Source: Marsupella aquatica (taxonomy: Eukaryota > Plantae > Marchantiophyta). From it: 64,000 nt of DNA. This document shows, piece after piece, positions 13,431 through 54,794 of the stretch. The stretch lies in contig OZ316895.1 in NCBI GenBank assembly GCA_973895155.1, positions 22,146,558 to 22,210,557 on the forward strand. The letters are read 5' to 3'. Numbering within the stretch: the stretch's first letter is position 1; each line of letters opens with the position of its first letter. A program made the translations under genes and the position numbers. Below the pieces are notes generated by a model that ran no database searches, was not told the DNA's origin, and saw only the letters and a list, made by a program, of their open reading frames with translations.

Positions 13431-13499
13431 GCAAAAAAAGTGGCAACAACTTAACAACTTTTTTTACTTAACATGGTTTACTAGCAATATTTTCAATTG

Positions 13500-14750
13500 T
13501 ACTTAAGAACATCTTTTACTTCACAACTTACATCTTTGTCTAATGACATCCCTTTACTTATCGACCATTTTGTACTTAACAAAAAACTACTTAATAACAT
13601 CTTTCGTAAAACATAATCTTTTACCTGACAACATCTTGGACATAAAGACATCTTTGGTGCAACGACATCTTTTACTTCACAACATTTTTCACATAAGAAC
13701 ATTTTTTCTTCACGACACCTTTGGCATCACGACATCATTGTTCTTAATGACATCTTTTTACTTCACAACATCTTTCACATATTAACAACTTCTTTGGCAA
13801 CATGACATCTTTTTTCTTAACGACATCTTTGGCAACATGACATCTTTTTTCTTAAAAAAATCTTTGACAACACAACATGTTTTTACTTAACAAAATTGTT
13901 GGCAACATCACCTTTTTTCATGACAACATCTTTGGCAACACAACATATTTTTTCTTAACGACATCTTTTGTGCAACGCACTGGTATTGAGCCATCTTTCA
14001 CATATTAATGACATATTGGGTGAAACTACACCTTTTTATTTATAACATCTTTTACTTCACAATCACTTAGTTTGGCAAAATGACACCTTTTTCTTAACGC
14101 CATCTTTCACATAATGATATCTTTGGAAAAATGACTTCTTTTTTCTTAACGACATCTTTTTACTTCATGACATCTTTCAGATAACAACATCTTGGGCGAC
14201 ACGACATCTTTTGTACAATGCACTGATATTTTTCCTCAATGACGTCTTGGCCAACACGACATTTGTTTTCTCAACGACATCTTGGCCGACACGACTCTTT
14301 TTTCACAATGATGTCTTGCCCGACACAACATATTTTCTCTCAACGACGTCTTGGCCGACATGACATCTTTTTTCTCAACGACTTCTTTGCCAACACAAGA
14401 TCCTTTATCTCAATGATTTCTTGGCCTGTCACATGACATCTTTTTTATCAATGAGATCTTGGCCAACACGACATCATTTTTCTCAACGACCTCTTGGCCA
14501 ATACAACTTTTTTTCTCAACAACCTCTTGGTCGACACGACATCTTTTTTCTCAACCAAATCTTGGCCGACACGACATATTCTGTTTATCATCAACATCTT
14601 GCCGACACAACATCTTTTGTTCTCAAGAATTTTTTGGGCGACACGACATCTTTCTTCTCAACAACCTCTTGGCCGACATGACCTCTTTTGTTCTCAACAA
14701 TATCTTGGCCGTCACGACATCTTTTGTGCAACGCACGGGTATTGAGCTAG
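13500..14750 (+). repeat. Degenerate ~30-35 bp minisatellite array ending in a Helitron-type 3' terminus
   Basis: Many copies of (A)ACGACATCTT with GGCCGAC/GGCAAC or T-run linkers. The array ends in GTGCAACGCACGGGTATTGAGCTAG|T (14726-14750), matching the plant Helitron 3' motif (..GCAACGCACGG + spacer + CTAG, followed by T). Confidence 0.75.
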
Positions 14751-18849: not shown

Positions 18850-19035
18850 TTTTGGCAAAGATGTCTATGCATTGAGTTTGCATCCAAAATTTTCACATTG
18901 GGGTTGAAAAAACGATGAGTAATAATACAATACACATTTGGGTCACTGAAGTATTTGTCAGTTTGACCAAAAGTTGCACAAGAATGGTTGTGAAATTGTG
19001 GATGCAAACTCAATGCATAGACATCCTTGCCAAAA
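18850..19035. repeat. Inverted repeat (~47-bp arms, ~90-bp spacer); MITE remnant or hairpin
   Basis: 18850-18897 (TTTTGGCAAAGATGTCTATGCATTGAGTTTGCATCCAAAATTTTCACA) is the reverse complement of 18989-19035 with about 2 mismatches and 1 indel. No TSD seen. Confidence 0.75.
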
Positions 19036-31018: not shown

Positions 31019-31362
31019 TGTTGAGCATAGACGACATTCGTAACGGCAAGCCCATGAACCATCCAACGCACAATAGTCGACACAGAGAGATACGTGGTTC
31101 ACCTCCATATGAGGCTACGTCCACGGGAACACACAAGAGCTTTACTGCACTCTAGGCCGACCGGCCATACCAAACATCCACAGCACAAGCTCTCCCTATC
31201 TCTCAACTAGCTCCGTAACAATGAGCCTAAGTTCCACCAGGGTCTGGCATCAGCCCTGGCTATATGCACACCAGCACTACCACTAACATTAGCTAAGTCC
31301 TAACCCAAGTTAGACTAACTGTGGTTAGCTCATGAGTCACAAGACTAGAGCAATATCTAACA
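31019..31362 (-). repeat. 3' LTR of the copia element (344 bp)
   Basis: TGTTGAGC...TCTAACA. Direct repeat of 37603-37950 with ~11 substitutions and one 4-bp indel by manual alignment. Confidence 0.95.
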
Positions 31363-31569
31363 AAATCCCATTTGACGCTTGTCTTGGGGACTGGACTAAA
31401 TGCTACCATATGGAATCCTCAACGGGAAGTTCTAGACAATCACCAAACCAGGTCTCCCCCTAAAAACCACAAGGGTTAACTAAGGGTTAACTAGAACTAA
31501 GCCGTAGCCAAATAGGAATGAGTAATTCATATACAAATAGTCACACATTGCTAAATAACTCTACTTGCA

Positions 31570-34500
31570 CTACAACTGCAAAACCTGCAAAATAGCACGG
31601 TGTCTTGAGAAACTCTCCAAAGGAATCACTTTGGTAAATGCATCAGTGGGATTGAGCTTTCCATCAATCTTGACTAGCTCAAAATTTTTATCAGACACTG
31701 CTTGCCTGATAAAATGGTACCTGATATCAATGTGCTTCACCCTGCTATCCATCACCTGGTTAGCAGCCAAGTGAAGAGCACTCTGACTATCACAGTTTAG
31801 AGTCATTTTGCCATGCTCTAAACCCATCTTCGCGATCAACTTATCCAACCAAATTGCTTCCTTTGCTGCTTCTATTGCTGCAACATACTCTGCTTCTGTA
31901 GTAGACTGAGATATACACTTCTGCAAGGTAGATTTCCAACTGATACATCCTCCTCCAAGAGTGTATACAAACCCAGTTGTAGACCTCCTTGTGTCCAAAC
32001 AGCCTCCATAGTCAGAATCTACATAGCCAACTAACTTTTTATCTGATCTGTTATCAAATAGTAATCCATAGTTCTGTGTTCCCTTCACATACCTAAAAAT
32101 CTATTTCACAGCTTCCCAGTTTACCTTCCTTGGATTTGACATGAATCTGCTGACCTTGCCCATCGCTAGGGCCAAGTCAGGCCTAGTACAAGTCATCAAA
32201 TACATCAGACTGCCTACTGCCTTCTCATAAGGAATCTTAGCCATCATACCTTTCTCCACAGCATCCGTAGGAGAGAAAGCCGATGATAACTTGAAATGTG
32301 AAGCTAAAGGAATATTCACTGGCTTACAGTTTTCCATGTTGAATCGTGCAAGTACTTTCCTCGCATACTGGCCTTGACTCAAGCACAACTGTCCAGTCTC
32401 AGAGTTCCTAAAAATCTCCATCCCTAAGATCCTCTTGGCCTTACTAAGATCCTTCATCCTGAATTCAACACTCAATTTCGCCTTGAGACTGTCAACCTCA
32501 GATTGATCTTTAGCCACAATTAGCATGTCATCCACATAGATCACCAAAATGATGAAACCAAATACATCATTCTTGACTGATTTCGTATACACACAAGGAT
32601 CATACACCATCCTTGTATAACCTTGAACAAGCATGAAATCATCAAACCGCTTGTTCCATTGTCTGGGAGACTGCTTCAATCCATACAAGGACTTGAGCAA
32701 TTTGCAAACTAAGTTCTCTTGGCCTTTCTTCATAAGGCCTAGTGGCTGTCTCATGAAGATCAACTCTTCCAAGTTGCCATAGAGAAAGGCAGTAACAACA
32801 TCCATCTGATCCATCACCAGACCAAAAAACACAACAAGCTGACACAAGATCTGAATTTGGGAATACTTAGCCACCGGTGAAAAGACCTCATTGTAGTCGG
32901 ACACTCCTTTCTCTTCAGTGAACCCCTTGGCAACAAGCCTTGCCTTGTAGATCTTATCTCCACCCTCTGAAGGATTGTCCTTCAACTTGTAAATTCACTT
33001 GCTGTCCACCACTTGGTGACCTCTTGGAAGCTCCACCAGCTCCCATGTCTTGTTGTCACTCAAAGATTGCAACTCCCTCTGCATTGCTGCATTCCACTCA
33101 TGCTTTTGCTCTGAAGCACAAGCCTCACTGTACGAAGAAGGCTCTCCTTCTTCCAAGATCAAAGCCATGTCATCATCATCAGGTGCAATATCAATATCAT
33201 CTAGCTTAGATGAGTCTGCCCATTGACCATACCTGGTAGGAGCTCTAGTAGAACAACTGGTAGTTCTTCTAGTAGATGACTCAGGCTGATCTGCTGCTGC
33301 TGGTTGAATTTGAGGTACCCCAGCAACAATCTGCTTCTCCTGTTCCATCGCAGGAACCAGCTCCAAGCCCGAAGCTTCTCCATCTCTCCTGTCATGAACA
33401 ACATCATGACTAATCTCCCCCTCAACTCGGTCCGGGATGGGAGATTTCCCCTTGTCAGTATGGGAGTCTTGAGAACTCTCCCCCTCCTTTGATGATCTGG
33501 ATTCATTAAAGGACACATCTCTACTAACAATTAGCTTACAGGTTACTGGATCCCATAACCTATAACCCTTCACACCTTTCTGATAGCCAAGAAAAATGCA
33601 CTTTTTCGACTTGGAGTCCAGCTTGGATCGAAGCTGGGATGGTGTAAGCACATAAGCATCACATCCAAATATTTTCAAATGTCAAAAATCTGCTGGACGC
33701 CCGTACCTCATTTCAAATGGCGTCTTGAATCCAATAGAACTGGATGGAGAAACATTTACCAAATAAGCTGCAGTGTTGATAGCTTCAGCCCAAAACTCAT
33801 GTGGTAAGCATGATTGACTCAACATACTCCTCGAGCGATCCAATAGTGTTCGGTTGAGTCTCTCAGAAACACCATTTTGCTGAGGAGTATAACTTGTTGT
33901 GAGATGGCGGGTAATCGCCTGCTCCTTACAATACGTTCCAAATTCCCCAGAACTGTATTCATCGTCGTTATCCGATCCAAGATATCTCACCTTATTACCA
34001 GTCTGATTCTCAACTTGGGTTTTCCGCTCCTTAAAAGTGGCAAATACATCAGACTTACTATGTAGAAAGTATATCCACACATACCTTGAGTAATCATCTA
34101 TGAACGTGACATAGTATAACCGTCCAGAATGTGAGGGAGTAGGGGTTGGACCCCACACATCACTATGTACATACTCAAGTACCTCCTTGCTGGTGTGAGC
34201 TCCAACTCCAAAGGGTTTCCTATGCTGCTTCCCAAGCACACAGTGCTCACAAAATTCCAACTTACAACTGAGACTGCAAATTAGAAAGTAATCCTTTCTT
34301 CTGAAGAATAACCAAACCTTTTTCACTCATGTGGCCCAAACGGAAGTGCCATAGCCGGGCCGTCTCCTCATGAGATAAAGTTACATCGGCTTCATCACAA
34401 ACTACACTGCCCTCCAAAACGTATAGATTGCTATGTCTCTTTCCCTTCAATACAACTTTAGTACCAGTTGAAACCTGAAGGAACCATTAGCAAAACTCCA

Positions 34501-35846
34501 CTGATGGCCATTTGCTTCTAAAACTCCAAGTGAAATGAGATTTTTCATCATGCTGGGAATATATCTCACATTTCTGAACGTTCTTACAGCACCATCAAAC
34601 ATCTGAAATCTAACAGATCCAAGTCCAACCGCTTGGCATGGGATTCCATTTCCCATCAACACTGAACCGTTGGAATCCATGTAAGAACTGAAAAATCTCT
34701 CCTAGAGCAAATGTGAAAAGTACATGCGCTATCTAGAATCCAGTCATCACTACCTGGATTTGACACGATGTTGAGAGCATAACCTTGGCATCACAATATG
34801 TCATCATCATCGAGTAAATCTACCTCATACAAGCTCAATGCCAAGTTAGCAGATGCAGTAGGGATCTTTACTCAACAATCCCTTTTCATGTGGCCTGGCT
34901 TGCCACAATTCCAACATGCAAGAGGCTTCCTCTCTTACAATTTCCCTCTGGATTTAGATCTCCCCCGTGATGTAGATCTAAACCTGTTCTGCCCATTTGA
35001 GCGTTGCGTTGCTCTCCCACGGTTCACGTTCAGCGTAGTGCCAGAAGAAGATGCTGTCTGTGATTGACCCAGCTTCTTCTGAGCATCATCAGACAGTAAA
35101 GAGCTCACCACCTCATTATATAAAATGGACTTCAGATCTCTATACAAGAGCACCTGTTTCAAGCCCTGATATGACGATGGCAAGGAGCTTAGTAGAAGCA
35201 AGGCCTTATCCTCATCTTCAACTCCTTTTCCCAGGTTTGACAGATCCACCACTAGACTGTCAAACTCATCCAGGTGATCCTGCATCTTGCTCCCTTCCTT
35301 GAGCCTGAGGCTCATCAAGAGAGACTTCTTGTACAGCCGGTCTGACGCATCTTCCCGGTAGTACTTCTCTCTTAGAGCCTTGAATAGTGACGCACAATCC
35401 GCATAATCATCCAACTGCTTGATGATGTGCGGCTTCAGATAAAGCATCACTGCATTAACAGCAATCACCTGCTCTTGTCTCCACTATCTCACATAAATCT
35501 CCTCCTCTCCATCATACTGCTCTCGCGATGAAAGCAGATGAGCTAAGCGCATGGCCCGAAGAACACCCTTCACTTGTTTCTCCCATAGCAAGTAATCAGT
35601 ACGACCATGGTACTTCTCCATCTCAAACTTCACTCCTCCAAATCTAGCCATCTCCCTCTTCTTCCCCACTACCGACAGCTCTGGTAGTAGTACAGCTTCC
35701 TCCACTGCACGTCGCACTGGTGATCGTACCGGTGTCACTAGTTCCTCCTCAAACAGTAGCAGCTCCTCCTCAGACTCTCCGTCTGACCGTCGCGATCCTG
35801 AAGCTTCACCGATGCCAATTCTTCCAGTATCCTCCGAGTCACTCAT
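31570..35846 (-). pseudogene. copia gag-pol polyprotein broken by stops and frameshifts
   Basis: gag VKFEMEKYHG..YLLW; zinc knuckle CWNCGKPGHMKRDC followed by TGA; protease WILDSACTFH; GAG-pre-integrase LWHFRLGH; integrase VHSDVWGP/FIDDYSR/PQQNGVSERLNR; RT YKARLVAKGF/YVDDMLI; RNase H YVDSDYGG/STTEAEY/CDSQSA. These are spread over several short ORFs. Confidence 0.93.
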
Positions 35847-37588
35847 ATGAAACAATCACAAAAAAACGTCTTTCTTTGAAACTTCTCATAAAACTCAAAA
35901 CTCAACACCGCCGTGTAGCTCACGAAGCTAGGAGTCCAATACTGAAAGCCAAAATCAAAATTCGACTGAAAAGTTATTCAATTTTGATCGGGGTGGGTAA
36001 AACCTTGGGAAACTCCCCCGTTTTGACCACCTCGGAGAATAACCAAAATACCCAGTACAACCCGTCGTCGGAATCACAATGTGATCAGTGCTCCGTGTTG
36101 CTAACTCCAGTGGCAACGTCCTCACCGAAAAAGAACCAAAAAAGTCACCGTTTGGTGGACGGAATCTTTGTCGGACGGCCGGAAAACAGCTCTCTATTTT
36201 TGGGAATATTCCCGCATAGTACAGCAGGTCTCACAGGGGGCCGTTCCCCCTGTCGGAGTGGTTAAAATGGAGGGTGACCGGTCCCGGGACAGCCAACAGC
36301 ATCAAACCGGCGAAAAAACAAAAAATGGGCCCTTAAAAGGGTGTTAAGCCCTATATACCCTAAAATACAGGTATAAAAAAAGGTGCATACGCCTATACGC
36401 GAGGCGGGCCAGGGGGTGTACAGGGCGTCGAGGCAGGGGCAGGGAGTAAAAAACAGCTATAAGAAATGCCCTAAAAGGGGTGCAAAGCCCTTTTCGACCC
36501 AAAAATACCAAGTATTATGGCCGGGGTACGAAGGGCGTATGGCAGGGCGCATACCTGGGCGGCTGTGTATGCAGCCGCGTACGCTATGTGCCGGGCCGGG
36601 GAGGGAAAGGAACGGCCGAGGGCGCGGGGGGGAGAGAAGGGCAACCGGCGGCAGCTGCCGGCCGGCTCTAGGTGTTAAAGGGGGCCGGGGTTAAACGGGG
36701 CCTTAAGGGGGGGGGGGGGGCGAGGCGCGTACTCACGCGAATAGCGCCGGCCGGCGCTGCATGAGACGCCGTAAAAAATGGGGTGCGGGGGGGGGGGGGC
36801 GTACGACGGGTACACCGCGGGGGTATACGGGGGTAGCACCTTGTGTGTGTGTGTACACACACAAGAAAGTGCCCTAAACCCCCCAATAAAGCAAAAAACT
36901 TCCCCGGGAAAGAGTGAATGATTTACTCACCTAAATGCCGCCGTTTCTAATGAGTAAACAAATCGCCGTCGACAGGAAATGTTGCCAAATTGCACGAGCA
37001 CAGTCTGCAGCTCCAGCAGAGTAAACAATTTCCACCGCGGTCTTCACTCCGTGTCAAGTGCCAATCCTAGACTCAAAACGACCGCCTCATCGCGATCAAA
37101 CCGTTGAGCCGTAACACTTCACGTTCCTTCCACCGAGTCAGACGTCACGAAGAGAAACCCGGTTCAGATGTGAACAAGCTCCATAGCTTGTGAAAAAACC
37201 TGAACGCCTCCTTCACTCGTCATGACACACTCGGTAACAACTCGGCAGCAACCTAGCTACCAAAACGACCAGCTCGCTTCAACCTTCAACTTGAGCTATA
37301 ATGTGCGATTCCTTCTGCACCGCACAGCTCACACCGTTGAAAAATGCGAACTCTGGTCTCTCCCCCGAAAACCCGTCAAACACGAATAAAGCCTGAACGA
37401 CGCAAGCTTTGATTCCTCCGCACCACGGATACCGATCAGCGAGTTCTAACCACCATTACAAAGCCCTCTCACTAACCTATCCACACAGCCACACACATTC
37501 AAGTTTCATGCGACAAACTCCGAATGTCCCATCGACAATGAACGCTGAAAAAACCTATCACGAAAAAACCTCGTCACCTCCCAGGTAT

Positions 37589-37600
37589 GCTCTGATACCA
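37589..37600 (-). other. Primer-binding site (tRNA-iMet)
   Basis: Minus strand reads TGGTATCAGAGC, 2 nt inside the 5' LTR. Confidence 0.92.
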
Positions 37601-37602
37601 CT

Positions 37603-37950
37603 TTTTGAGCATAGACGACATTCGTAACGGCAAGCCCATGAACCATCCAACGCACAATAGTCGACACAGAGAGATACGTGGTTCACCTCCACATGAGGCT
37701 ACGTCCACGGGAACACACAAGAGCTTTACTGCACTCTAGGCCGACCGGCCATACCAAGCATCCAGAGCACAAGTTAGCTCTCCCTATCTCTCAACTAGTT
37801 CCGTAACAATGAGCCTAAGTTCCACTAGGGTCTGGCATCAACCCTGGCTATATGCACACCAGCACTACCGCTAACATTAGCTAAGTCCTAACCTGAGTTA
37901 GACTAACTGTGGTTAGTTCATGAGTCACAAGACTAGAGCAATATCTAACA
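37603..37950 (-). repeat. 5' LTR of the copia element (348 bp)
   Basis: Copy of 31019-31362. The inner terminal TG is mutated to TT (37603-37604). Followed by TSD CAACT. Confidence 0.95.
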
Positions 37951-38216
37951 CAACTACCCAACAGTTAAGTACCTTATTGACATCAAGAACTTAATTAAAA
38001 TTTCAGGAGCTAGACTGAGCAGCAAACCTTCAAGTAAAGCGAGCAGCAGCACGAGCAAACTGGGCCAGTTCACAAGGGAGAACATCTACTTTGAGTAGAA
38101 CCAGCAGCTGCAATGACCACAAAGCATAAATTGTAGCAGCTTTGATCTCAAAACTTGTGGCAAAACTGAACACAACAGTGACGAACTTGAGTAGAAACTT
38201 TTGGGTAGCAGCTCTT

Positions 38217-39044
38217 GAAAAAAAAGACTTGATGGGGCCCCTCCTGGGAAAGAAACCCCTCACGAGGCCCCAACTTTGAAAAAGAACTTCCTGGGGCCCC
38301 CTTTTCCCTGTCCCACTTACTCATCACGGGTGGTCATTGTATTTCCCAACTCCATCTAACATGGTACACTGAGCCAGATGCCCAGTCAACCAGACACTAA
38401 TGTACTGCTCAAAATCAACTAATAAGCAAGGACTCCAAGTGCCATTTCCCACCTTTCCGTAAGCAATCAAAGCACAACAAATGGTTTGTGGACGGTGGCA
38501 GAGTGGTGGGGAGCCCCCAAATGGCAACCTGACTATTGCAGAGCACAGGCCCAAGTGTGCAAACAAATGCCCTAATGAGAGTGGAATAAAAATGCCGCAA
38601 TTCCAGTGTAGTTGTAACTGGCAACTGCAGCAAAGGTATGCCATCGCTGGCGACTGTAAGGGAGCTAAGTACATTGAGCTCTACTGCGCCCTCCATTTTA
38701 TTGTAAGCGGCACTCTATTGCCCACCTTCCCTGTCAGGGCAGAAGGTTTGCTCTGTTCTCCCCAAGGAATATGACTAAACTTTAGCTTGTTTGTGTTGAT
38801 TCTCACTTGAATAAAAAGGGAAACACAAATGGAGCTCAAGAGTACTAGCCTTGTAGAGTATTGTGTAGTAGTGCTTCAGGAGGTTGACTGGAGAATATGT
38901 ACGTGACAATAAGGTGTACCATGTTGGATGGTCACCCGTGATGAGAAAGGGTAACAGGGAAATAGGGGCCCCACGAAGTATTTTTTCAAAGTTAGGGCCT
39001 CATGGGGTGTTTCTTTCCCTGGAGGGGCCCATCAAGTTTTTTTC
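38217..39044. repeat. Old inverted repeat (~120-bp arms, ~590-bp spacer); foldback/MITE-like remnant
   Basis: 38217-38337 (AAAAAGACTTGATGGGGCCCCTCC...CTCATCACGGGTG) is a diverged reverse complement of 38928-39044. Confidence 0.7.
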
Positions 39045-39753
39045 TCAGCAGCTCTTCAATGAATGTAGTGGCACCCCGAGTTGAGGTAGAGCAGCAACAG
39101 CTCTACCTCAACTATAGTAGCAGTACCGATGACTTTAAGCAACAACATCAACATTCAACTTTGTCTGAGCAGCAGCTTTTCATTGACTTCAGCACCAACT
39201 TCCTCTCCCGGACTATTTAAGCTGAAGAGCGACGTCAACCTCACCATGCTGGACAGAGAAGCCAGCATTATCTCTGATGAGAATGAGGTAATGTACTGAG
39301 GGAAAGAGCCCCAAACACTCAAAATCTGGCCCCGTCCTGTGTCTCAAAAAGCCGAGGGCATGCCGTGATTTAGTCATGGCTTCAAATTGTCCCTACCTTG
39401 TGGACAAATGTTAAAGCTGGTTGAAGAGCTGTTACTGCCATGCGTTTCTGAAATTAGAGTGTTTTACGGTTAGTGCAACCAATGTGGAGCAGCACTCGGC
39501 AGATCGTAGTGTCTTTTTGGTTTTGAGGGGACGGGGTGAATTGGTTCATAGATTTGTTTCTTGGCAATGTGTTTTTTCAATGTGTTTATTTCACGTCTGC
39601 AGGATATGCCAGAGGCTGCAGGATATGCCAGAGGCTGCTGGAGCAGTAGCAGTAGCAGCAGCTGCAGTGTCGGATCGCTTATTGGGGCCTAGAGAGCGCC
39701 GACAGTTGGCAATTGTCCTGGTATCTTACGCGTAGAACCAGCTGCGTTTCCTC

Positions 39754-40008
39754 TGTGACGGGGTCCCGCCACGGTAAGTCACCATTAGTGTCACCAGCAA
39801 GACACTTGTAAATAAATAAGCCCATAGACGCGAGTTTTTTTTAATGTTCTTTAAGTTTGTAAAGTTTTTTAAAGCATCTCAAGATAGTCGGAGACCCCAA
39901 CAGTTTTGTCTAGACCCGGGTTAATTATGGGGCAAAACCTGGGGGGTTTTAAATCGTGACTTTCCGGGAAGGTAAGGAAGTCCGGGAAATAAGCATTTTT
40001 TGGTAACA
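39754..40008 (-). repeat. Putative complete 255-bp LTR (3' LTR of the parent element) with adjacent PPT
   Basis: Bounded by imperfect inverted ends TGTGAC...GTAACA. On the minus strand it is immediately preceded by CCTTAGAAGGGG (PPT-like, 40009-40020). Confidence 0.65.
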
Positions 40009-40253
40009 CCCCTTCTAAGGCAACACTCAGACAGGACTGGGGAAGTATGGGGGGGTTTAATTAAACCCCCATTAAATCCTTCCGCGAGTGGGCAGCGAGG
40101 AAGGGGGGCTCCGCGAGTGACCGGGCAGGGGGGCCGCGAGCCCTGCATAGGGCCGCGAGCCCGCGAGGACGCAAGCTGCGAGGAAGGGGGACTCCCGCGA
40201 GTTGGGTGTCGTGCGCATAAACATCACTACACAACAGAGTTTTGGTGGGGAGA

Positions 40254-40490
40254 CACCCACAGGCCACGGCTTGTAGCCGATTCATCTTGGTTGTGTGGGT
40301 TGGCACCCACAGCCCATGGCCTGTGGCCTCTTGCAGTTTGGTTGCGTGGGTACTCACCCACAGGCCACGACTTGTAGCCGATTCATCTTGGTTGTGTGGG
40401 TTGGCACCCACAGCCCATGGCCTGTGGCCTCTTGCAGTTTGGTTGCGTGGGTTGGCACCCACAGCCCACGGCCTGTGGCTGATTCATCTT
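40254..40490. repeat. Tandem repeat, ~101-bp period made of ~50-bp subunits
   Basis: CACCCACAGGCCACG.CTTGTAGCCGATTCATCTTGGTTGTGTGGGTTGGCACCCACAGCCCATGG... starts at 40254 and 40355, with a partial third copy. Subunits contain GTGGG..CCCAC hairpins. Confidence 0.9.
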
Positions 40491-40893
40491 CAAGAATAAT
40501 CGAACAACGATTGATGCCAATCAAACACACAATCTTGTCTGACGCGATCACACACATATGAAAGCCTCAAACCTACATAGTCCGATATCCTATACTACCA
40601 CTCAGACACGGGACAAAGGAGGGCTCCGGGGCGCAAGGTGAAAAGAAGCTCCCGGGAAGGGTTTCGTTGTTTTTTTTCTCTCCCCTCTTTTCTCCTTTTC
40701 ACACGACCCTTCTCTTGCCGAAAGCAAACTCGAGTTTCTCTCTCTTATTGCCGAAAGCTTTCTCCTTATGTTACAATTATTTGAGCTCTCTCTCCAATTC
40801 TTCTCAAGGTTCACTCATGGGGGATTACGGGGGCTGTTTCGGGCCAGGGAATTGACATTGCTACGGGTGACGATTTGATCTCGGGATGCATGA

Positions 40894-42726
40894 ATGCTAG
40901 ATCAACAGGAGTTTAGTGTGGCATGCATTCGGAGATACAAGGCTGCTTACCGTGACTACGTGGAGACTTTGATTGCAAGGGAGAGAGAAGAGAGAGAAGC
41001 TACGATGAGCACGGGATTGGCAGCAGGTTCCACACCGGTGGGTAGGAGGATTTTTTGTCAAATTTATCCCAAGACCTCCGCCAAGGTGATGGAGGATTGT
41101 CGGAATATTTTCCAAGCCACCGGGGTTACAGAATTCATGAAGGTGGAGATTACCATCCCTCCGGAGAAGAGCTGGGACATTGAGGCCGGGATGGAGTTAC
41201 GAACGGAGGGAATCTACTTTGAATGTCTCAAACGTGTAGTGCCCCATGTGGAGTTAGCTAGGCTGCTGTTTCTGGAGAATCAGAAATTCTCATTCACACC
41301 TCGGCATATTAGGGGAGAACTCACGTTGAAGATGGTGGCCACTTGGGTGATTAATCCCACCTCCACCACTGCCATCCCTCTTTCCGCTGTCAAGGATGTT
41401 GAGTATAAGGGATTCCTGGCCAAGGTTCATCAACGGGTCCTTGGCAACGTGCAATCCGGGGTGGTGAATGAAGAGCATTTCGTGGTAGCTATGGACATCA
41501 AGAACCACCCAGCCCATGTGTACGGATGGTGGTACTACGGGTTGAAGAAGCTGTTGGCCGCTGATCCCGGGAGTGTGAAACCAGGTGGGGCTGTACATTT
41601 GATGGGGTCATTTGTATTGGCCAGGGCAGAAGGGTTGATTGGTTCCCCGGGACAGGAAGACACGGGATCATCTCTCACCACGGAGATCCGGAGTATTGCC
41701 ACTACCATTATAGGGAAGCTCACGGAGGAATCATCATCGGCCGGTGGGGATGAAGATAGAGGAGAAGAAAACCAGGATGAGGATTACACGTTGGAGTGGC
41801 TTGAATCACTCGTGGGAGATCCAAAAAAGCCCCTGGTCTACAACATTCTGGATGTTTACTTGGCAGAGCTACGGGATTTCAGAGAGGGAGTCCATGAGGG
41901 ACTCAAGCTAATCCACGCATTAAGAGATTCTCTCAAGCATGCCTCAGCCAGAGTAGAGACGTTAGAGCAGAGTACCCTGTCTCTGAAGGAGGTGATCAAG
42001 GCCAAGGAGGGGACCATTCATGAGAAGGATAAGCTTCTCCAAGCAGCTCACGTAGAGATCTCCAACTTGAAGGGGGTCTTGTCCACCAAGGCCAAGGAAG
42101 CAGAAGAGGTGGGAGCGTTGAGACAAGCATTGGCCAAAGAGAAGCAGAATTCTGGAGAAGTGGTGGAGTGGAGAAACCAGGTGGGAGCACTACGGAGTCA
42201 GGTGGCCGCCTTTGAGACACGAGCGATGAGGAGTGAGGCCTTGAGTCTGGGGAAACGGAAGAGCCCCGACACACCTAGCTCCACACTTTCCCCGGATTTG
42301 ATCTCCCAGGCTATTAAGATGGTGGTGAAGGAGGTTAGTGGGAAGTATGGGCCCTTGTTGGATGGAGTCAAGAAGAGTCAGGAGAAGAGCAAGGGCTTGG
42401 AGAAGAAGCTCCGGGAGGTACGGAAATCGTTACGGGAGGCTCAGGTCAGTACGGGGATGCCACCCAGGTCTGTCACCCCCGGGACTCCCATGGCCACAGG
42501 GCAAGTTCTACCGTTGGAGTTGCAGTCCGGAGAAGAGGCTACCCTATGGAAAGACACCATTGGTGAGGGGTACATCAAGGCGTGGCAGGCCTTGGCCACT
42601 TTGAGGAAGCAAGGGAGCGGCAGCACGAAGAGTACCCCGGTAAAGAAGAAGAAAAGTGAGGTGGCACTCACTCCCGTGAGTGATGAAGAGGAGGCCCACT
42701 CACGGGTGATGAGTTGTAGATGGTAG
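40894..42726 (+). CDS. Retrotransposon accessory ORF of unknown function (globular N-domain, acidic linker, long coiled coil, basic NLS-like tail), 610 aa
   Basis: Uninterrupted 1833-nt ORF inside the inverted-ended element. Heptad-rich segments (LRDSLKHASARVETLEQSTLSLKEVIK..., KGLEKKLREVRKSLRE), GKRK and VKKKK basic clusters, and a pyrimidine-rich leader at ~40650-40800. Confidence 0.8.
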   Translation: MLDQQEFSVACIRRYKAAYRDYVETLIAREREEREATMSTGLAAGSTPVGRRIFCQIYPKTSAKVMEDCRNIFQATGVTEFMKVEITIPPEKSWDIEAGMELRTEGIYFECLKRVVPHVELARLLFLENQKFSFTPRHIRGELTLKMVATWVINPTSTTAIPLSAVKDVEYKGFLAKVHQRVLGNVQSGVVNEEHFVVAMDIKNHPAHVYGWWYYGLKKLLAADPGSVKPGGAVHLMGSFVLARAEGLIGSPGQEDTGSSLTTEIRSIATTIIGKLTEESSSAGGDEDRGEENQDEDYTLEWLESLVGDPKKPLVYNILDVYLAELRDFREGVHEGLKLIHALRDSLKHASARVETLEQSTLSLKEVIKAKEGTIHEKDKLLQAAHVEISNLKGVLSTKAKEAEEVGALRQALAKEKQNSGEVVEWRNQVGALRSQVAAFETRAMRSEALSLGKRKSPDTPSSTLSPDLISQAIKMVVKEVSGKYGPLLDGVKKSQEKSKGLEKKLREVRKSLREAQVSTGMPPRSVTPGTPMATGQVLPLELQSGEEATLWKDTIGEGYIKAWQALATLRKQGSGSTKSTPVKKKKSEVALTPVSDEEEAHSRVMSCRW

Positions 42727-42784
42727 GCCTTGATGTACCCCTCACCAATGGTGTCTTTCCATAGGGTAGCCTCTTCTCCGGACT
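42727..42784. repeat. 58-bp fold-back (perfect inverted copy of 42524-42581)
   Basis: GCCTTGATGTACCCC...CTTCTCCGGACT is the reverse complement of AGTCCGGAGAAG...GTACATCAAGGC. Confidence 0.95.
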
Positions 42785-43010
42785 TCCTTACCTTCCCGGA
42801 AAGTCACGATTTGAACCCCCCCAGGTTTTGCCCCATAATTAACCCGGGTCTAGACAAAACTGTTGGGGGTCTCCGACTATCCTGAGATGCTTTAAAAAAC
42901 TTTACAAACTTAAAGAACATTAAAAAAAACTCGCGTCTATGGGCTTATTTATTTACAAGTGTCTTGCTGGTGACACTAATGGTGACTTACCGTGGCGGGA
43001 CCCCGTCACA
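42778..43010. repeat. Right terminal inverted repeat (inverted copy of 39754-39985)
   Basis: Ends ...CCGTGGCGGGACCCCGTCACA|TCCTC. Its first 7 nt (CCGGACT) overlap the end of the fold-back segment. Confidence 0.95.
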
Positions 43011-44425
43011 TCCTCCTTGCTTGGTAGCAGGTCAACAATACAAATTAGGATGTCATTGTTATATACAATACCGAGCTGTGACCTCCTTGATTCTTAATTC
43101 TGTTAAGAATGGAAGTGAGAAGTAGTCCATTAACTCCGGCCCCGGTTAAGCAAGCAAACTTCGGTTTCAATTTTCCTGGAATGGCACCATGCCCCCTGTT
43201 TAGTAGAGGCGTTACTCTAGTACGGGTTTAGATCCGTCATGGAGCATAGTAGGCAGTTCCCTTAGTGACAGTCATCTTGACGAGAGCGTTGGTTGCACAG
43301 GTCGGTCTGCCTGCCCGGGGAAAGACATTCACAGCGGCGAAGTTAACTCGATACTTGCGTTGGCTTGGTCATGATACCAAGCATTTTAACGTGGGGAAAG
43401 TAAGATTTTTGTTGTTTGCACGTACCAATGTCACCAATTTGTAGCTTTCTAAAGGGTTGTTGGTTCTGCCGAGTGGTCAGTTTGACTGAAGGTCTTCATA
43501 TGGCTTGATTTTGCAGTACCGTCGCCTGAAGCATGGATGTAGCCAGGTACAGTTTTGCGTCCAACAATTTGACATTTAGCGATGAGCTACTAGGACTAAA
43601 TGGTGCACTCTAGCTGATGGCGCTGTTTTTTTGCATCCTTGCAAAACTTTTGGGCGACCCAGATTACTCCTCTCCACTGAAATAATCTCTTCTACTCTGT
43701 GCTATTTAGTCAGCAGATTTTTTCCGTGCCGACAATCGAGAGGGTGTCGATGCAAGGAATGAGGTACGCTTTCTCCAAAATGCGGTAGTTGTGCCAGACG
43801 GTCTGAACGCATCCGGTATTTAACAGATGAACTCAGTCATTTGTATTCCTTCGAGAGTGTCTATTTAGTTAAGGACGAAATTGTCTTGATTAGGAGTTTC
43901 TTTGGATTCTAACAATTCCTAATTCTGCTCTCAAATGCATTTTCTGTGTACAGGTAGCCATTGTCCAGTATAAAAAGCAATCCAAAATATCGCTAAGTAG
44001 CACTAATTCATGTGCCGTAATTGCTGTTTGAACAACATTAGTGTGAGTAACATTCATTTAGTAGAGCACAACATTTTCTTGACCAGTGAGAATTAGTGTG
44101 AGCAACACTAATAGTGGTGAAGAGTGTCTACTTTCCTTCCCAAAGTCAACTTTCTTTCCTTTCCTTTGCACACTGTAGTCCACATGATGACAAATCTGGT
44201 TCGAATTTCTTTGAAAACTCCTCTTGGGCTTTGGTAGTTCCTATGCAACTCTATACCCTGCATGGCATGGAAGTCATCAAGAGCTTTGGGGGATAGGGGC
44301 CAATGGCAAGAGTTCAGACAGGCTCAACTTTTAGCTGCGAGTCCCATGGACCAAACATAATTCTCAAGTATTCCAGGTGTTTTACCCTAAACTAGGAGGA
44401 AAAATTCCCACTCTCTTTTTACAGC

Positions 44426-44731: not shown

Positions 44732-46794
44732 TTAAACTCACAGTCCATGGAGGTTGTAAGATTCATGGGCTATGATCCATCCAGGCATTCTTTTTCATTT
44801 GAATTCGAAAGAATTTAGTACAGGACAAGGATATTTGTCAAGGATATGGAGTTCATGGCCTTCTCTATCATATTAGGAAGGGAAGGTCAAAACATCAAAA
44901 CTGTCAAGGATGATATCAAGGTTGACTTTTCATGTACAGTAGTATATTTCCTTCAACATCAAGAACAAAGTTGATTGACAAGGCAGAGAAAAACATCCTG
45001 AAAAAGCAGAGGTACATCCCACAGAAGATTCCAAATCAACAGGTAAAAACAAATGTCTGTAGACAATATCTACTAACGCGGGTAGATAAATCAAATTTGG
45101 TGATCATTGATAGATATCCACCAAAGCCAGAACATCTTATAACTACATCATGATACTAGGGATCTGTTACACTGACTTGTACATGAGAATGGTGGTGAAG
45201 CTATTTTCTTTTGCCTTCAAAATTCAACTTCATTAACTCTAAAAAGAACAACACAAAGCGAAGAGGAATGTGAGGAATGAGGCCGATCATAGGATCTCTC
45301 AGCAGAGAGCCCAGGTCAGAAGTGCTGGCCAGTGAGAATGGTGCAAGGCCACAAAAGAGTTAATGGCCAGTGAGAATGGTGCAAGGCAACAAACGAGTTA
45401 ATGTACAGGGCCCTTCTTTTGTTAACTTAACCTGACAAGACCCACCTTTTTGAATTTGACTTAATGGGGCCCACGTTCTAGTGTCAGGTGGGACATTTAC
45501 TTATTGAACAATCAAGCCCCAACTGGCCACACTACCTCACTCGGATCCTCTCCTCTCATTCCTTTCCATGTCTGAATCAACATGGTCCTGTCTCCAAAAG
45601 TCAAATTGGACTTGAGCTGGGGGGGGGGGGGAGGTGTTTCTGCTACACAACCTTCAGGAGGCATATTCGATATTATTAGATAGCTCATATAATGAGTTTT
45701 TGGTCGGTACCATAAGTCACTATGAAAGTTATACGATTAACTTAACTTTGTGAGAGACTTTTTGAAAAATAGTAGAGGAAACATTGACTCTAACGTAAAT
45801 TTTATATGCTAGAGTCCTTTTTTAACTTTACATGACGCCCTCATAACACAACGTAACAAGACTTTGTCATATCCACTTTACAGAAGAGACATAACTAGAA
45901 TATATGTAGCCGTTAGCGCACCGTCACAAGATTTTATCATATAAACTTATACAATATATACCACAAAAAAATGTGTAGCCTCATAAGAGGCCAGACTTGT
46001 GTAACCATGCACAGGAAATACCCAAAGTTGTTGATGGCCTTCACAAGATTTTATCATGTAACCCTTACGGAGGATACACCACAAAAAGTATCTGTAGCCC
46101 TCATAAGACTCCAAGATTCTACAATATAATCCTACATAAATGCAAAGGAAAATCACACGAGTTTGTTAAAGGTGAGCACACCTGCAAACGATTTTATCAC
46201 ATGAGCATTAGAGAAGATGCACAGGAAAAATCAATGAAGTTGTCATATGTACCATACTCTAAGATTTGAGAGATTTGTTTGGTGGAACCCTAAAAGGAAA
46301 TGTTTTACTTGATAGGACCCTTGAAAGTTTGGGTCCATCTATTCAAGGTAAATCAACGGCCTGGATCACTCAGGGGTCCTATCAAGTAAAACATTTCCAT
46401 TTGGGTTCCCACCAAGCAAATCCCTCGGCAAGATTCATCTACAATCAAATGTTATTTAAGGTGAAAGATGCACTATCCCTCAAATTGCCACTGCCCATGA
46501 GACTGTGAGATGACAAACTAGGCACTCAACCTGCCCATTTCTATACTTCAATTTATTTTTGACCAACTATGGTGCCTGGATCTACCAGGTTATGAGGAGC
46601 GCCCGCAGCGCTTTCTGATTCACGCAAGATAGTTGAATCACAATGAAGCTAATCAGTGTTTACAACATTGTGATTCAGCACAGTCACAATGGTGCTAGTT
46701 GAAAGTATCTACTTCATGGAAAAAATAAATAACAAATGGTGCTAATCAACGTTTACAACGTTGTAATCTCGAAAGATGCATTCTACACTTACTT

Positions 46795-50103: not shown

Positions 50104-51570
50104 TCAGGCGACATGCGCTACCTCTACCAGCCGTTCGTAGACACAGCAAATTGCTCTCCATAAACTGAGCTCCTCGTAATGTATTCCATGCTTCTGGCAT
50201 AATTCTTTCACGTGGGGCGCAACCTTCTTCAGATTATGTCTCGGAAGAGTAGGAAAGAGATGATGCTCGATCTGCCTGTTAAGGCCGCCAGTGAACCAGT
50301 CATTGAAGAAGTTACCCTCAATGTTTCGAGTGGAGGTCGCTTGAGCCGTGACGAAATCTCTCGGGTCGTTGTACACATCCATTCCGTTGTGGCTGAGAAC
50401 AAACACAATGCTGAGAAGGGCCCCACCAAACAATTGGGATAGAAACAGCCAGCTGAGCGCCATAGCTGTTGGCAGGAGCCAGAACGCAGCACTAAAGAAG
50501 GCTACATAGTGAGCCACCAGAGAACTCCTTTCCAGGAATCTCATACCCTTGGACATATCAAAATGCTTGGCATGCTGCCAGCTCGAATGGAGCCAGCTGA
50601 ATCTAGCAACGAAGAGGAGAGGGAAGAACAAGATGTGCTGCACTTTGATGATAGACCTGAAAAATTCGTTATCCACCGTGGCAAGAATGTCTTTGCTCCA
50701 GGCAAGAAGTGGCACTGTATCAATGTCCGGATCAATGGGGTTGAACTTCTCATCACATTCATTCGTAGCTGCGTGGTGCACGTTGTGTTTGCTTTTCCAC
50801 CATCCCACGCTATATCCCTGCATAAAATTTCCCCAGAAAAGACCACCCATCACTGTGTTCAGCAGTCGGTCCTCTGCCACCTGATTGTGGAGGAAATCGT
50901 GCGCCAGCCACCCACATTGCTGCCAGAACAGCCCCAGCAAGAAGGCAGAGCAGAGAACCGCAGGAAAACTATGTGACATACTAATGATCCCCAAACTGGC
51001 CGCCAGAATCGCAAAATTCCCCAAGCTCTTGTACGTGTAATAAATTTTGCTGCTTCTGAACTGCTGGGCTTTCACAAGCCCTCTCCTAATTTCTCTGTAC
51101 TCGCTCAAAGCCTCTGTCACTGGCTCCGCAATTTTCAGATCGCCGATGTGACATTCCGGTAAATATGTCCAAGCCTTGGCCGAATGGAAGTTACGGAAGT
51201 TGTCCGTCCCATCACGTCCCGCTTGAGTAAAAATCGCAGCCCCACCTGGATGAGTCTTCCCAAACTCCGTCACATCATAAACCTTGTCATTGATTATGAT
51301 CCAGCAGTCGTCGGCCGTTTTGTGCTGCGCAACCTCTTTCGCAGTCCAAAGACGGCGTCCACAGGGAGAGCGGTCATTGAAATCATTTCCCGCTCTTGAT
51401 CTCAGCTGGCTTTCTGTTGTAGCCTTCCCCTGCTGCTTATCAGTCGGGTTGCGCTTTTCCCGGCTCACCGTGCTACCCACAATCGTCGCCTTGTAGCTCC
51501 ATTTCGACCAAATGCCCTGCGTCGTCGTCGTCGTTGTCGTGGTCGTCGTAGCCGGTGCCATTCTTGCCAT
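50104..51570 (-). CDS. Cytochrome b5-fused front-end fatty-acid desaturase, probably delta-6 (488 aa, intronless)
   Basis: Cyt-b5 domain (DCWIIINDKVYDVT..HPGG); His boxes HDFLH, WWKSKHNVHH and QIEHHLFP; also DPDIDT and DWFTGGLN. The N-terminal GIWSKW resembles liverwort delta-6 desaturase (from memory). Confidence 0.95.
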   Translation of the reverse strand: MARMAPATTTTTTTTTTQGIWSKWSYKATIVGSTVSREKRNPTDKQQGKATTESQLRSRAGNDFNDRSPCGRRLWTAKEVAQHKTADDCWIIINDKVYDVTEFGKTHPGGAAIFTQAGRDGTDNFRNFHSAKAWTYLPECHIGDLKIAEPVTEALSEYREIRRGLVKAQQFRSSKIYYTYKSLGNFAILAASLGIISMSHSFPAVLCSAFLLGLFWQQCGWLAHDFLHNQVAEDRLLNTVMGGLFWGNFMQGYSVGWWKSKHNVHHAATNECDEKFNPIDPDIDTVPLLAWSKDILATVDNEFFRSIIKVQHILFFPLLFVARFSWLHSSWQHAKHFDMSKGMRFLERSSLVAHYVAFFSAAFWLLPTAMALSWLFLSQLFGGALLSIVFVLSHNGMDVYNDPRDFVTAQATSTRNIEGNFFNDWFTGGLNRQIEHHLFPTLPRHNLKKVAPHVKELCQKHGIHYEELSLWRAICCVYERLVEVAHVA

Positions 51571-52622
51571 ATCGATCGATCGATCAATGTCGTTCCTCAG
51601 ACGAATAAGGAGCGACGCTCAGTCCGTTATATCATCAAGGGCCTTCACAAGATTCCAATCCCGCCGCCCACGTCCGAGGCAATGCGCATCACCCAGTTCT
51701 TCCTCTTCCTCCTCAGTCGCAGCTCTGCGGCAGCCTCTCGAGACGTGAGTGATGGGACCGAACCACGAACACAAATCGAACTCTTCTCTCTAGCTCAACG
51801 GCGCTCCTGTAGCTGGCCCCACGTGTATTAATGGGATCTACTAAACATGTGATTGCAAATCGCTCCTCGGTCCTCAGCTACTGCTGCCACTCGAGCGGAA
51901 GGTATCTCCAAAATGCAGAACGAAGTCAACTGCCGGTGCCTTCTCCGTTGCTCTGCTGCCGAGTCATGAAGAAGAAAGGCTCATTCAGCTTCAGCTGCTT
52001 CCGAAGGATTGGGAGAAAGGCTCATTCAGCTTCAGCTAGCCAGCCAGACACTCGTATCGAGCGGGAACACAGCCGTGGTAGCGAGGCAAGAGGGCCCGGT
52101 CGAGTTGTTATTCTGGTGAGAAAGTAAGGGGAGCACGAGCACCATATACTGTGCAATCTCGCTCACCTCCCAAGATCCTCGATGGCGACTGGAGCTTGAA
52201 AAAGCGCAATTCCTACCTTCTCGCACCGACATGCAGCTGCGCTGCGACGACCGATCGCTGCGAGGGAGTGTGAGGGATTCGCCGTGGGCATCGAGCAACG
52301 TACTGAATCTTGATAGGGGCGGCTGATATTACTATGCGGAATTGCTGGACTACTGCTCGGCTCTGCTCTCCTCTGCTATCAGTGACTATGCTCGCTCAGT
52401 ACGCGCGACTCGACACGGCCATAAGGCCATTCGTGGCGCCCACACTTTTACAGTACTACCTCTGTGGCATCAGGTTCGACCAACAAATTAATTAATCAAA
52501 ATTAATAAATTCCATTATTTTTTACAAAATAATTAAGTGTTTGGAATGGAACAAATTATGCATCGTGTTCGCCCAACAAATTAATTAATGTTAGAATGTG
52601 TGTAAGCCATAGCCATGAGAAT

Positions 52623-52967: not shown

Positions 52968-54794
52968 ATTTTGGATTTTCCTGGAAAATGAAGCATCTAA
53001 AGTGTTTTACTTTCCATTCAATGCTTTGCCCAGAATTATCCATCCCTCCTGTGTTCAGTCTACATGCCCATACATGTTCCAGATAGTCAACAAGTGTTTT
53101 GCCATCTCTAAAATTTGACTATTTTTGGAGATGAAAGACATGAGTGAAAATTTTAAAACAATCCAAAAAAATTGTATAGTGTGTCAAGTGTTGAGCGAAG
53201 CTCTAGTTGGGGAAAAAAGGAACCAACAAAATCTTTTGCTGAGCCGTTGAGTGAAGTTCGTGGGAAAAGAAATGGACGCAACCTTAGTTCTAATCTTGCT
53301 TTGAGTGGAGCTCAAAGTGGCATGTCTCCAGAGAATTACAATAATGGAGCTCATCTAGATTTATTACACTGGTGAATTGAGGACTGTCGGGGAAGGTTGC
53401 AAGCTGTCTTAATGCTAGCCATGGCTCAAGCTTAGAAGACTTCTGGTCCTCGAAACCTTTGACAATTTTGTGGTGACATAAGCTCAACCATGGGATCAAT
53501 GCATGGCCAATTTTGTGATAAACTCTAGGAATATTTTGAATACCTTCAAGCATTTGCAGATTTTGCATGTACATGACTTCACTGCAGTCTTGTAACTACA
53601 CAAATTGTGGCCAAGTACATTCTAATGCTAGTGAGTCCAATTTCCCCATATCTGATAAATTTTCCTTGGTTCTTCCTATTCCTATTGGTTCTCACATACT
53701 AAACTTGAGCACCTAGAACTTCAAATCTAATTTACTAGCTTGCATGGTCTTAAGCTTGCTTGGCAAGCTGCTCCAGATGCACAGTGTCAAGGTTTCTACA
53801 TCTTGTCAAGTCTGTTGCAACTACACACCAGCAGTCATTAGAACTTTGCCTTCCTATAAAACATTGTACATATTCAACTTGCAATTAGCCAGTCTTGCTG
53901 TGAAACTACCCAGAGATTTTCCACTTTGAAATAGTTGATGCACAATCGCCAAAGGAATCTGGTCATGATGGCATTTATCAACGGGAGATAAGTGGTCATA
54001 TGGAGAAGTTACGTTGCCAACTTTTGGGCAACTATCAGTCTTCTTCTTGTCTTTGCCGTGTTTGGATTTGCTCGAGCCCAAGACAAACCAATTGAAGACA
54101 AGTACAAGTAGATTTTCAGGATATTCCAACTATGTTGGATTATTCTCTATAGGTGTGAAAAACTAGACAATATTTGGGTTAGTAGTTATAGTTACCTGTT
54201 CCTTTTAATGTGATTTTCAATTTCATTATTGTTAGCACTCTTTTATGTAATAAAAAATAATAATTTATTTCTAGGAAATAACAAAAGTAACCAAAGCGGT
54301 TACTTGTTAAAAAACATTCATCTAGTCCGTTGTGTTATTGTTTCGTTATGCCTTGCAGGACAACTTGCTTTTACAGCATGGTGACCAAGAATTTTCTCCC
54401 AAATTGGCGCAAACAAGAAGGCAACTGTTATTTTGACTCCCAAAAACGACAAGAAGAAGACTGGTAGCTGCCCAGTAGTTGGCAAGATAACTTCTCCATA
54501 TGACCACTTATCTTTGGTTGATAAATGCCATCATGACCAGATTTTCCCCAACTAGTGCTAACTTCAATGCTTGACACCCAATACAATTTTGTCCAATTTT
54601 TAAACTTTTTTACTCATGTCTTTCATCTCCAAAATAGTCAAATTCAAGAGACAGTAAAACACTTGTGTGACAATCTGGAACATGTATGGGGATGTCAACT
54701 GAATATAGGATGGATGGATAATTCTGGGGAAAGCTTTATTTAAATGGAAAGTAAAAAAATTTAGATGCTTTCATTTTCCAGGAAAATCCAAAAT
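52968..54794. repeat. Long diverged inverted repeat with a split left arm (foldback/MULE-like remnant)
   Basis: The contiguous right arm 54448-54794 matches, in reverse complement, 52968-53216 plus 53956-54051 (roughly 80% identical by eye). About 740 bp of extra sequence interrupts the left arm. Confidence 0.8.

What the first reader, a model, noticed from the sequence alone, without database searches (positions are those of the whole stretch)
39754..43010. Integrated 'copy-back' retroelement: LTR-type integration signature but inverted ends
Seen: a 3257-bp insertion with TG...CA termini, a perfect 5-bp TSD (TCCTC) and ~232-bp terminal INVERTED repeats about 98% identical. The left repeat is part of a 255-bp LTR-like unit (TGTGAC...GTAACA) with a PPT-like tract beside it. 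The right repeat is the same LTR end inverted, missing the 23 nt nearest the PPT. There is no gag, RT, integrase or transposase. Known: a 5-bp TSD with TG...CA ends is the footprint of retroviral-type integrases, and LTR elements normally have DIRECT repeats. Inference: the parent's minus-strand cDNA terminated early, copied back onto its own 5' end, and made a panhandle molecule with two identical (U5) att ends that integrase inserted in trans. This is analogous to copy-back defective-interfering viral genomes, and a possible route from an LTR retrotransposon to a TIR-like (Ginger-like) element. Alternatively it is one member of an undescribed non-autonomous TIR family mobilised by an integrase.
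Basis: partly seen in the sequence, partly recalled or inferred. Interest (0 to 1): 0.88.

Follow-up and report, generated by a model that had tools for sequence, protein, structure and literature searches.

The report
Retrotransposon scrap with two identical ends
A 3.3-kb insertion in an intron of a liverwort sugar-metabolism gene has the same 232-base end on both sides, facing inward, and is likely a one-off faulty DNA copy of a common retrotransposon that folded back on itself before insertion; it could make hairpin RNA against its relatives, which is untested.

Summary
In detail: 39754-43010, TG...CA ends, 5-bp TSD, 232/233-bp inverted ends with 4 differences. Contigs of 3 of 4 public runs show the empty site with one TCCTC; the fourth hints at the filled right junction. 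An artefact is unlikely.

New here:
- The host is a liverwort, and the insertion sits 33 nt into an intron of a 6-phosphofructo-2-kinase gene.
- The 610-aa ORF is a high-copy, liverwort accessory-type ORF, cut about 14 codons before its normal end.
- The break falls exactly at the only perfect stem of 9 bp or more in the 2.95-kb left part.
- After the break come 20 untraced nt, 58 nt of inverted ORF, and a 7-nt microhomology jump into the terminal repeat.

This fits a fold-back during reverse transcription with insertion by a helper integrase (0.6). Not shown: the parent's direct LTRs, whether the ends are U5 or U3, and whether the junction is unique. The 'route to Ginger' idea has no support. 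This scan noted similar two-identical-end insertions in four other windows (unchecked notes). Verdict: new variant of a known kind.

The parts
39749..39753 (+). Left copy of the 5-bp target-site duplication TCCTC
   Evidence: single copy at the empty site in X2, X4, X5
39754..39985 (+). Left terminal arm (232 bp), part of the parent's terminal repeat
   Evidence: depth at 39950 is 7-11 times the flank in X3-X5
39986..40008 (-). Rest of the proposed 255-bp LTR, starting TGTTAC on the minus strand; boundary inferred, rival boundary at CA 39994-39995
   Evidence: contig ends are ambiguous
40009..40016 (-). Candidate polypurine tract, 8 nt
   Evidence: lower bound of the 8-49 nt range given in PMC7264820
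40245..40490 (.). Tandem array, about 4.7 copies of a 50-51-bp unit
40894..42726 (+). 610-aa ORF: N-terminal helical domain, acidic linker, coiled coil; accessory-ORF type; last 6 residues come from the filler
   Evidence: depth at 41823 is 56-483 times the flank
42673..42706 (+). Perfect 10-bp stem with 14-nt loop, ending exactly at the break from the parent sequence
   Evidence: family contigs leave the window's sequence behind 42706 in X2, X4, X5
42707..42726 (+). 20-nt filler, source not found
   Evidence: longest match 7-8 nt, same as shuffles
42727..42784 (-). Inverted 58-nt copy of ORF 42524-42581, 100% identical
42778..42784 (-). 7-nt microhomology AGTCCGG shared by ORF 42524-42530 and terminal repeat 39979-39985
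42778..43010 (-). Right terminal arm (233 bp), inverted copy of 39754-39985
43011..43015 (+). Right copy of the TSD
39721..43300 (+). Host intron (GT...AG) of a 6-phosphofructo-2-kinase/fructose-2,6-bisphosphatase gene; 318 nt without and 3580 nt with the insertion
   Evidence: splice motifs, frames; downstream exon 43301-43399, PF01591 E 3e-14; upstream exon inferred from frame and recalled plant homologues

Best explanation
This is a real, polymorphic insertion with identical inward-facing ends, likely a one-off dead by-product of reverse transcription of a Gypsy-type LTR retrotransposon that a helper integrase likely inserted by two copies of the same LTR end. Inferred steps: (1) first-strand cDNA copied the LTR, PPT, tandem array and antisense accessory ORF, and stopped at 42706 where its 3' end can fold into a 10-bp hairpin; (2) after 20 untraced nt it re-primed on itself and copied 58 nt back (42581 to 42524); (3) it jumped through AGTCCGG onto an LTR-length DNA (its own 5' end or a strong-stop-type molecule) and ran to the LTR tip; (4) a second primer completed the duplex; (5) integrase supplied in the particle inserted it with a 5-bp TSD. 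U5-U5 is favoured over U3-U3 by about 2 to 1. With no gag-pol and no good PBS it is predicted to be immobile.
For: TG...CA ends, 5-bp TSD and empty allele. A normal Copia element in the same window shows the same footprint with direct LTRs. The family's ORF continues past 42706 in X2, X4 and X5, and homologue P0076 runs about 14 residues further, so the junction is a break and not the family's normal form. The break coincides with the only perfect stem of 9 bp or more (loop 3-30) in 2953 bp. The 58-nt piece is 100% identical to its source while family contigs differ by 7.6% (P 0.015 if drawn from the family at large), so it was copied from this molecule or a near twin. The jump used a 7-nt match near the LTR's inner edge although a 12-nt match from the same donor lay at 41160; 1 of 27 matches of 7 nt or more with donor at or after 42480, and 3 of 80 overall, end in 39965-40008 (windows chosen after the fact). 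This suggests capture of an LTR-length intermediate. The order terminal repeat / purine tract / tandem array / ORF pointing away matches the pol-3'LTR region of Retand-type elements (PMC11963269, passages; PMC7264820, part 1 of 3). The Atlas lead is Transposase_32/ATHILA at 0.86-0.87 (lead only).
Against: No parent with direct LTRs or gag-pol was seen: no genome is held and the metagenome scan found nothing. Contigs of X3, X4 and X5 cross the proposed LTR edge at 40008 without a break, and X4's begins at 39966, which would put a branch just after the CA at 39994-39995 (my reading of the from_end column, assuming 31-letter words). That fits a U3-U3 reading with a 242-bp LTR; Tcn1-type elements of non-seed plants have a T-rich tract and no PBS there (PMC2864245, passages). 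Terminal depth of 1.4-1.9 times the adjacent internal depth fits direct and inverted repeats equally. Snap-back insertions with microhomology are also typical of polymerase-theta repair (recalled). The filler is unexplained. Only 15 of 16 joints and 24 of 440 loose ends were displayed, so other copies of the junction are not excluded.
Confidence: 0.6

Rival explanations
1. Integrase paired like ends from two cDNA molecules, or inserted a longer palindromic product, and host end-joining or a later deletion trimmed and joined the inner ends.
For: A hairpin at the break, an inverted templated insert from 125 nt upstream, a filler and a 7-nt microhomology also match synthesis-dependent end-joining (recalled). 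An earlier scan note (e1-9366127, unchecked) read a two-U5 element this way.
Against: The right arm stops 10-23 nt short of one full repeat unit and passed over a better 12-nt match, which random trimming would not favour. The filler is no better matched to nearby DNA than shuffles (P 0.71).
Confidence: 0.22
2. It is one member of a non-autonomous TIR family (Ginger/TDD-like) moved by an integrase-related transposase, carrying a captured retrotransposon ORF.
For: TIRs, TG...CA ends; terminal sequence 1.4-1.9 times deeper than adjacent internal sequence in 3 runs. At 39950 the from_end value of 36 in X3, X4 and X5 could mean contigs ending at the TIR's inner edge 39985 (it could equally mean a start at 39915 or a SNP at 39955). 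Integrase-related TIR elements occur in lycophytes and bryophytes (PMC6839031, passages).
Against: No transposase. The right arm is attached through a messy three-part junction that cuts an ORF which continues in other copies. In X4, contigs carrying about 650 of 736 depth units reach 39994, beyond the TIR edge. No strand-changing joint among the 15 of 16 shown. TSD is 5 bp, against 4 or 6 bp given for Ginger1, Ginger2 and GingerRoot in PMC6839031 (5 bp for Tdd-4 is recalled).
Confidence: 0.12
3. Assembly or library fold-back artefact.
For: No listed contig spans the whole element, and the inner junctions were not seen in an independent run.
Against: The arms differ at 4 sites. Both ends abut unique flanks with an exact TSD that matches the empty allele in 3 runs. 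X3 has a 212-nt contig aligned end to end over 42982-43193, with 29 letters on the element side (below the tool's 31-letter bar), and X3 shows no empty-site joint.
Confidence: 0.04

Closest known systems
Template-switch 'complex' LTR retrotransposon insertions (Sabot and Schulman 2007, PMC1950507; part 1 of 2 read)
   Same: Aberrant structure bounded by one 5-bp TSD and near-identical outer ends, attributed to abnormal template switching before integration.
   Different: Those have three direct LTRs and two full bodies. This one has a polarity switch, inverted ends and no gag-pol.
Defective HIV-1 proviruses with deletions, inversions and asymmetric LTRs (PMC9278108, passages)
   Same: RT misalignment makes deletions that start in an LTR, and inversions, which still integrate.
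   Different: The passages read describe no provirus with the same LTR end on both sides.
Retand/Tat/Athila-type Gypsy pol-3'LTR region with accessory ORFs (PMC11963269 passages; PMC7264820 part 1; PMC11728184 passages)
   Same: Tandem array and accessory ORF next to a terminal repeat; Atlas lead to Transposase_32/ATHILA.
   Different: Retand is reported only in flowering plants. No TRP28 or other Pfam hit here, and without RT the lineage cannot be assigned. Liverworts have their own Tat cluster (PMC13468544, passages).
Mu killer of maize (PMC3440606, abstract)
   Same: Partial inverted duplication with two copies of one transposon end, placed where a host transcript could read through.
   Different: Mu killer derives from a DNA transposon, has a proposed hairpin of about 4 kb and shown silencing. 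Here the arms are 232 and 58 bp and no RNA was examined.
Ginger1, Ginger2/TDD, GingerRoot (PMC6839031, passages)
   Same: TIRs with TG...CA-like ends and an integrase-type footprint.
   Different: They encode a DDE transposase, form multi-copy families and have 4- or 6-bp TSDs by that paper.
DIRS-1 (PMC7192593, passages)
   Same: Inverted terminal repeats plus an internal complementary piece.
   Different: The DIRS ICR matches the element's tips and a tyrosine recombinase inserts it. Here the internal piece matches the ORF and there is a 5-bp TSD.

Membership tests
Ty3/Gypsy LTR retrotransposon | TG...CA termini and 5-bp TSD | tested here: met
Ty3/Gypsy LTR retrotransposon | Two LTRs in direct orientation | tested here: not met
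   Only inverted arms; no direct copy in the window. Parent not seen.
Ty3/Gypsy LTR retrotransposon | PPT next to the 3' LTR | tested here: inconclusive
   8-nt purine tract before TGTTAC on the minus strand; contigs cross this edge unbroken
Ty3/Gypsy LTR retrotransposon | PBS next to the 5' LTR | tested here: inconclusive
   Best candidate matches 8 of 12 letters of the PBS of the window's Copia element and lies 5 nt (12 nt in other runs) from a CA
Ty3/Gypsy LTR retrotransposon | gag-pol with Gypsy domain order | tested here: not met
Retand/Tat/Athila-type element | Accessory ORF with TRP28, Transposase_32 or ATHILA domain | tested here: inconclusive
   No such Pfam hit for the ORF or 14 relatives; Atlas lead under 0.9; folds unusable
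Retand/Tat/Athila-type element | RT phylogeny | not testable with these tools
   No RT in the element and no genome held
Ginger/GingerRoot | Terminal inverted repeats with TG...CA or TA...TA ends | tested here: met
Ginger/GingerRoot | Integrase-like DDE transposase | tested here: not met
   (a non-autonomous copy would also lack it)
Ginger/GingerRoot | TSD of 4 or 6 bp (PMC6839031) | tested here: not met
   5 bp; a 5-bp TSD for Tdd-4 is recalled, so this is not absolute
Ginger/GingerRoot | Several copies with the same paired TIRs at different sites | tested here: inconclusive
   one search shows only part of the joints and loose ends
DIRS | ICR complementary to both tips | tested here: not met
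   The 58-nt piece matches the ORF, not the tips
DIRS | Tyrosine recombinase | tested here: not met
Mu killer-like silencer locus | Inverted duplication of a transposon end inside a host transcription unit | tested here: met
   (structure only; upstream exon inferred)
Mu killer-like silencer locus | Hairpin transcript, small RNAs and silencing in trans | not tested
   The one run search was for DNA and listed no RNA run

The most novel reading that the evidence does not exclude
LTR-retrotransposon reverse transcription recurrently makes fold-back molecules with two identical ends that integrase accepts in vivo, and this one, lying in a host intron, works as a Mu killer-like locus: the host pre-mRNA carries a 232-bp terminal duplex and a 58-bp ORF duplex that yield small RNAs against a family with tens to hundreds of copies, in carriers but not in empty-site plants.
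Probability: 0.12. Interest if true: 0.7.

Novelty: new variant of a known kind. Interest (0 to 1): 0.38.

Why it matters
It is an in vivo record that an LTR-type integrase can insert a molecule with two like ends. Annotation tools that need direct LTRs would miss it or call it a TIR transposon. Because it is present in some plants and absent in others and sits in a host intron, it offers a natural test of whether such accidents start silencing of their own family. As it stands it is most likely one dead copy with no shown effect, and the scan's own notes suggest the class recurs, so this instance is not unique.

Tried and rejected
ORF homologue searches by shared words found nothing. The first Atlas search gave no hit. 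The metagenome scan found 278 pattern matches and none confirmed; the alignment version could not run. Both folds were too poor to search with (pLDDT 36.5 and 46.6). Rfam gave 2 hits far below gathering score, taken as chance. The filler source was not found. Run X1 (share 0.10) was never laid and is not used. Depth is summed contig depth, not copy number, and is used only as a rough ratio. The 12 displayed ORF differences from the other runs are 4 synonymous and 8 non-synonymous, which fits drift, but they are only the 12 ORF rows among 40 of 269 rows shown. DIRS was rejected on the ICR, recombinase and TSD. Post-insertion inversion of a normal element was rejected because both tips are the same end and abut the TSD exactly. 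Literature searches for a published like-ended LTR insertion returned none that describes one, judged from listings and the passages named; the library lacks most subscription papers and no supplements were read.

Full report
1. Observation. The element spans 39754-43010 with TGTGAC...GTCACA ends and TCCTC on both sides. The arms align over 233 columns with 4 differences, 1.7% with a Poisson interval of 0.5-4.4%. No other copy of the arm or ORF lies in the window. No retroelement or transposase domain was found in the long ORF or in 10 other frames.

2. Is it real? No genome is held. The run search listed 5 runs from 3 studies with shares 0.10-0.56; I laid 4 of them, all as contigs. Three (X2, X4, X5) show the joint 39748 to 43011, skipping 3262 nt, which is the element plus one TSD copy, with 206, 46 and 255 letters on the shorter side. 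X3 shows no such joint and has a 212-nt contig aligned end to end over 42982-43193. Only 29 letters of it lie in the element, below the tool's 31-letter bar, so this is a hint that X3 carries the insertion. Flanks of the four runs differ from the window by 0.4-1.4% in the pieces shown, the same order as the arm divergence. The inner junctions were not seen in independent data.

3. Host and site. The neighbouring desaturase is closest to liverworts (Calypogeia fissa 73%, Marchantia 65%). The exon after the element is 6-phosphofructo-2-kinase (PF01591, E 3e-14; PDB matches). A GT at 39721 and an AG at 43299-43300 put the element 33 nt into an intron that grows from 318 to 3580 nt. The upstream exon has no Pfam hit of its own and is inferred from frame and recalled plant homologues.

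4. What the body is. The ORF region is 56-483 times deeper than the flank at 41823, the terminal repeat 7-11 times, and the stretch just inside it 4-8 times (summed contig depth, rough). The full-library search gave 14 relatives. Of the 10 looked up, 4 are unnamed Calypogeia fissa proteins, 5 are Logan and 1 ENA fragments. One starts at the same methionine; P0076 matches residues 533-599 at 67% and ends about 14 residues beyond the break. So this is a nearly complete stand-alone ORF, not the start of gag-pol. The Atlas points to Transposase_32 (25% of members, 0.87) and ATHILA (17%, 0.86), a lead only (the first search was blank). Those families are accessory ORFs of Athila-type Gypsy elements (PMC11728184, passages). 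[quoted passage not shown] The parent is therefore inferred, not seen, to be a Gypsy-type element.

5. Which end is doubled? The same letters read on the plus strand as a PBS-like start, but they match only 8 of 12 letters of the PBS of the Copia element in this window and lie 5 nt from a CA (12 nt in X3-X5, which have 7 more letters there). Against U5-U5: contigs of X3, X4 and X5 cross 40008 unbroken, and X4's begins at 39966, which would place a branch after the CA at 39994-39995. Logan contigs drop rare branches, so this is weak. Tcn1-type elements have a T-rich tract and no PBS at that position (PMC2864245, passages). A fold-back is easier on the first strand, which is single-stranded after RNase H (established knowledge). 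I put U5-U5 at about 2 to 1.

6. The junction. Family contigs follow the window to 42706 and then leave it in X2, X4 and X5. The only perfect stem of 9 bp or more with a 3-30-nt loop in 39754-42706 ends at 42706; that the stem is letter-perfect in the parent was not checked. Then come 20 nt with no traceable source (P 0.71 against shuffles), 58 nt of inverted ORF at 100% identity, and a 7-nt microhomology into the terminal repeat. Both inverted pieces are copied from the same strand in the same direction, so one polarity switch and one jump explain the order. The jump passed over a 12-nt match at 41160 and landed 10-23 nt from the repeat's inner edge; 1 of 27 nearby matches does so (post hoc). 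That favours capture of an LTR-length reverse-transcription intermediate, modestly.

7. Mechanism. Shown: like ends, TSD, empty allele, order and identity of the pieces. Inferred: arrest and snap-back of the cDNA, the jump, completion of the duplex by a second primer, and insertion by an integrase supplied in trans. Host end-joining of two cDNAs, or later trimming of a longer palindrome, gives the same product and cannot be excluded (0.22). A TIR family (0.12) and an artefact (0.04) are less likely. The element lacks gag-pol and a good PBS, so it is predicted to be dead.

8. Possible effect. A host transcript through this intron would contain both arms (computed duplex -444 kcal/mol, longest perfect run 128 bp) and the 58-bp duplex (-124). 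That resembles Mu killer, a partial inverted duplication read through from a flanking gene (PMC3440606, abstract). No RNA data were examined.

9. What is known. Template-switch complexes with one TSD are published (PMC1950507, part 1 of 2), as are deleted and inverted HIV proviruses (PMC9278108, passages). Six searches showed no paper on like-ended LTR insertions; the library is partial. Ginger-type and DIRS membership fail on defining features (PMC6839031, PMC7192593, passages). The scan's notes list four such insertions elsewhere, three U3-U3 or front-end and one U5-U5 (unchecked), and none for this sequence or genome.

10. Verdict. Real; new variant of a known kind; interest 0.38. The silencer reading has probability 0.12 and would deserve 0.7.

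Noticed in passing
window 31019-37950, minus strand: Ty1/Copia element with direct LTRs (about 95% alike), TG...CA ends, CAACT TSD, a canonical PBS and a coding region broken by in-frame stops (gag, integrase, RT). Used as an internal control.
   Followed up: partly
window 38210-39053: About 840-bp MITE-like unit with 123-bp inverted ends, 85% alike, probably in or near the same host gene.
   Followed up: no
window 52968-54794: Inverted repeat of about 250 bp, 84% alike, with a third partial copy at 53956-54054; possibly an old TIR element.
   Followed up: no
window 50104-51618, minus strand: Intronless cytochrome-b5-fused fatty-acid desaturase, 65% identical to Marchantia MpDES6.
   Followed up: partly
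window 25153-26223: Glycoside hydrolase family 32 exon.
   Followed up: no
window 12913-14747: Degenerate tandem arrays of 17/35-bp units.
   Followed up: no
window 46268-46426 and 18850-19035: Short imperfect palindromes of 160-190 bp.
   Followed up: no
window 39754-40826 versus 40826-42706: The ORF is shared with a far more abundant family than the terminal region, and Calypogeia fissa has at least four copies annotated as ordinary genes: likely an undescribed liverwort retrotransposon accessory protein family.
   Followed up: partly
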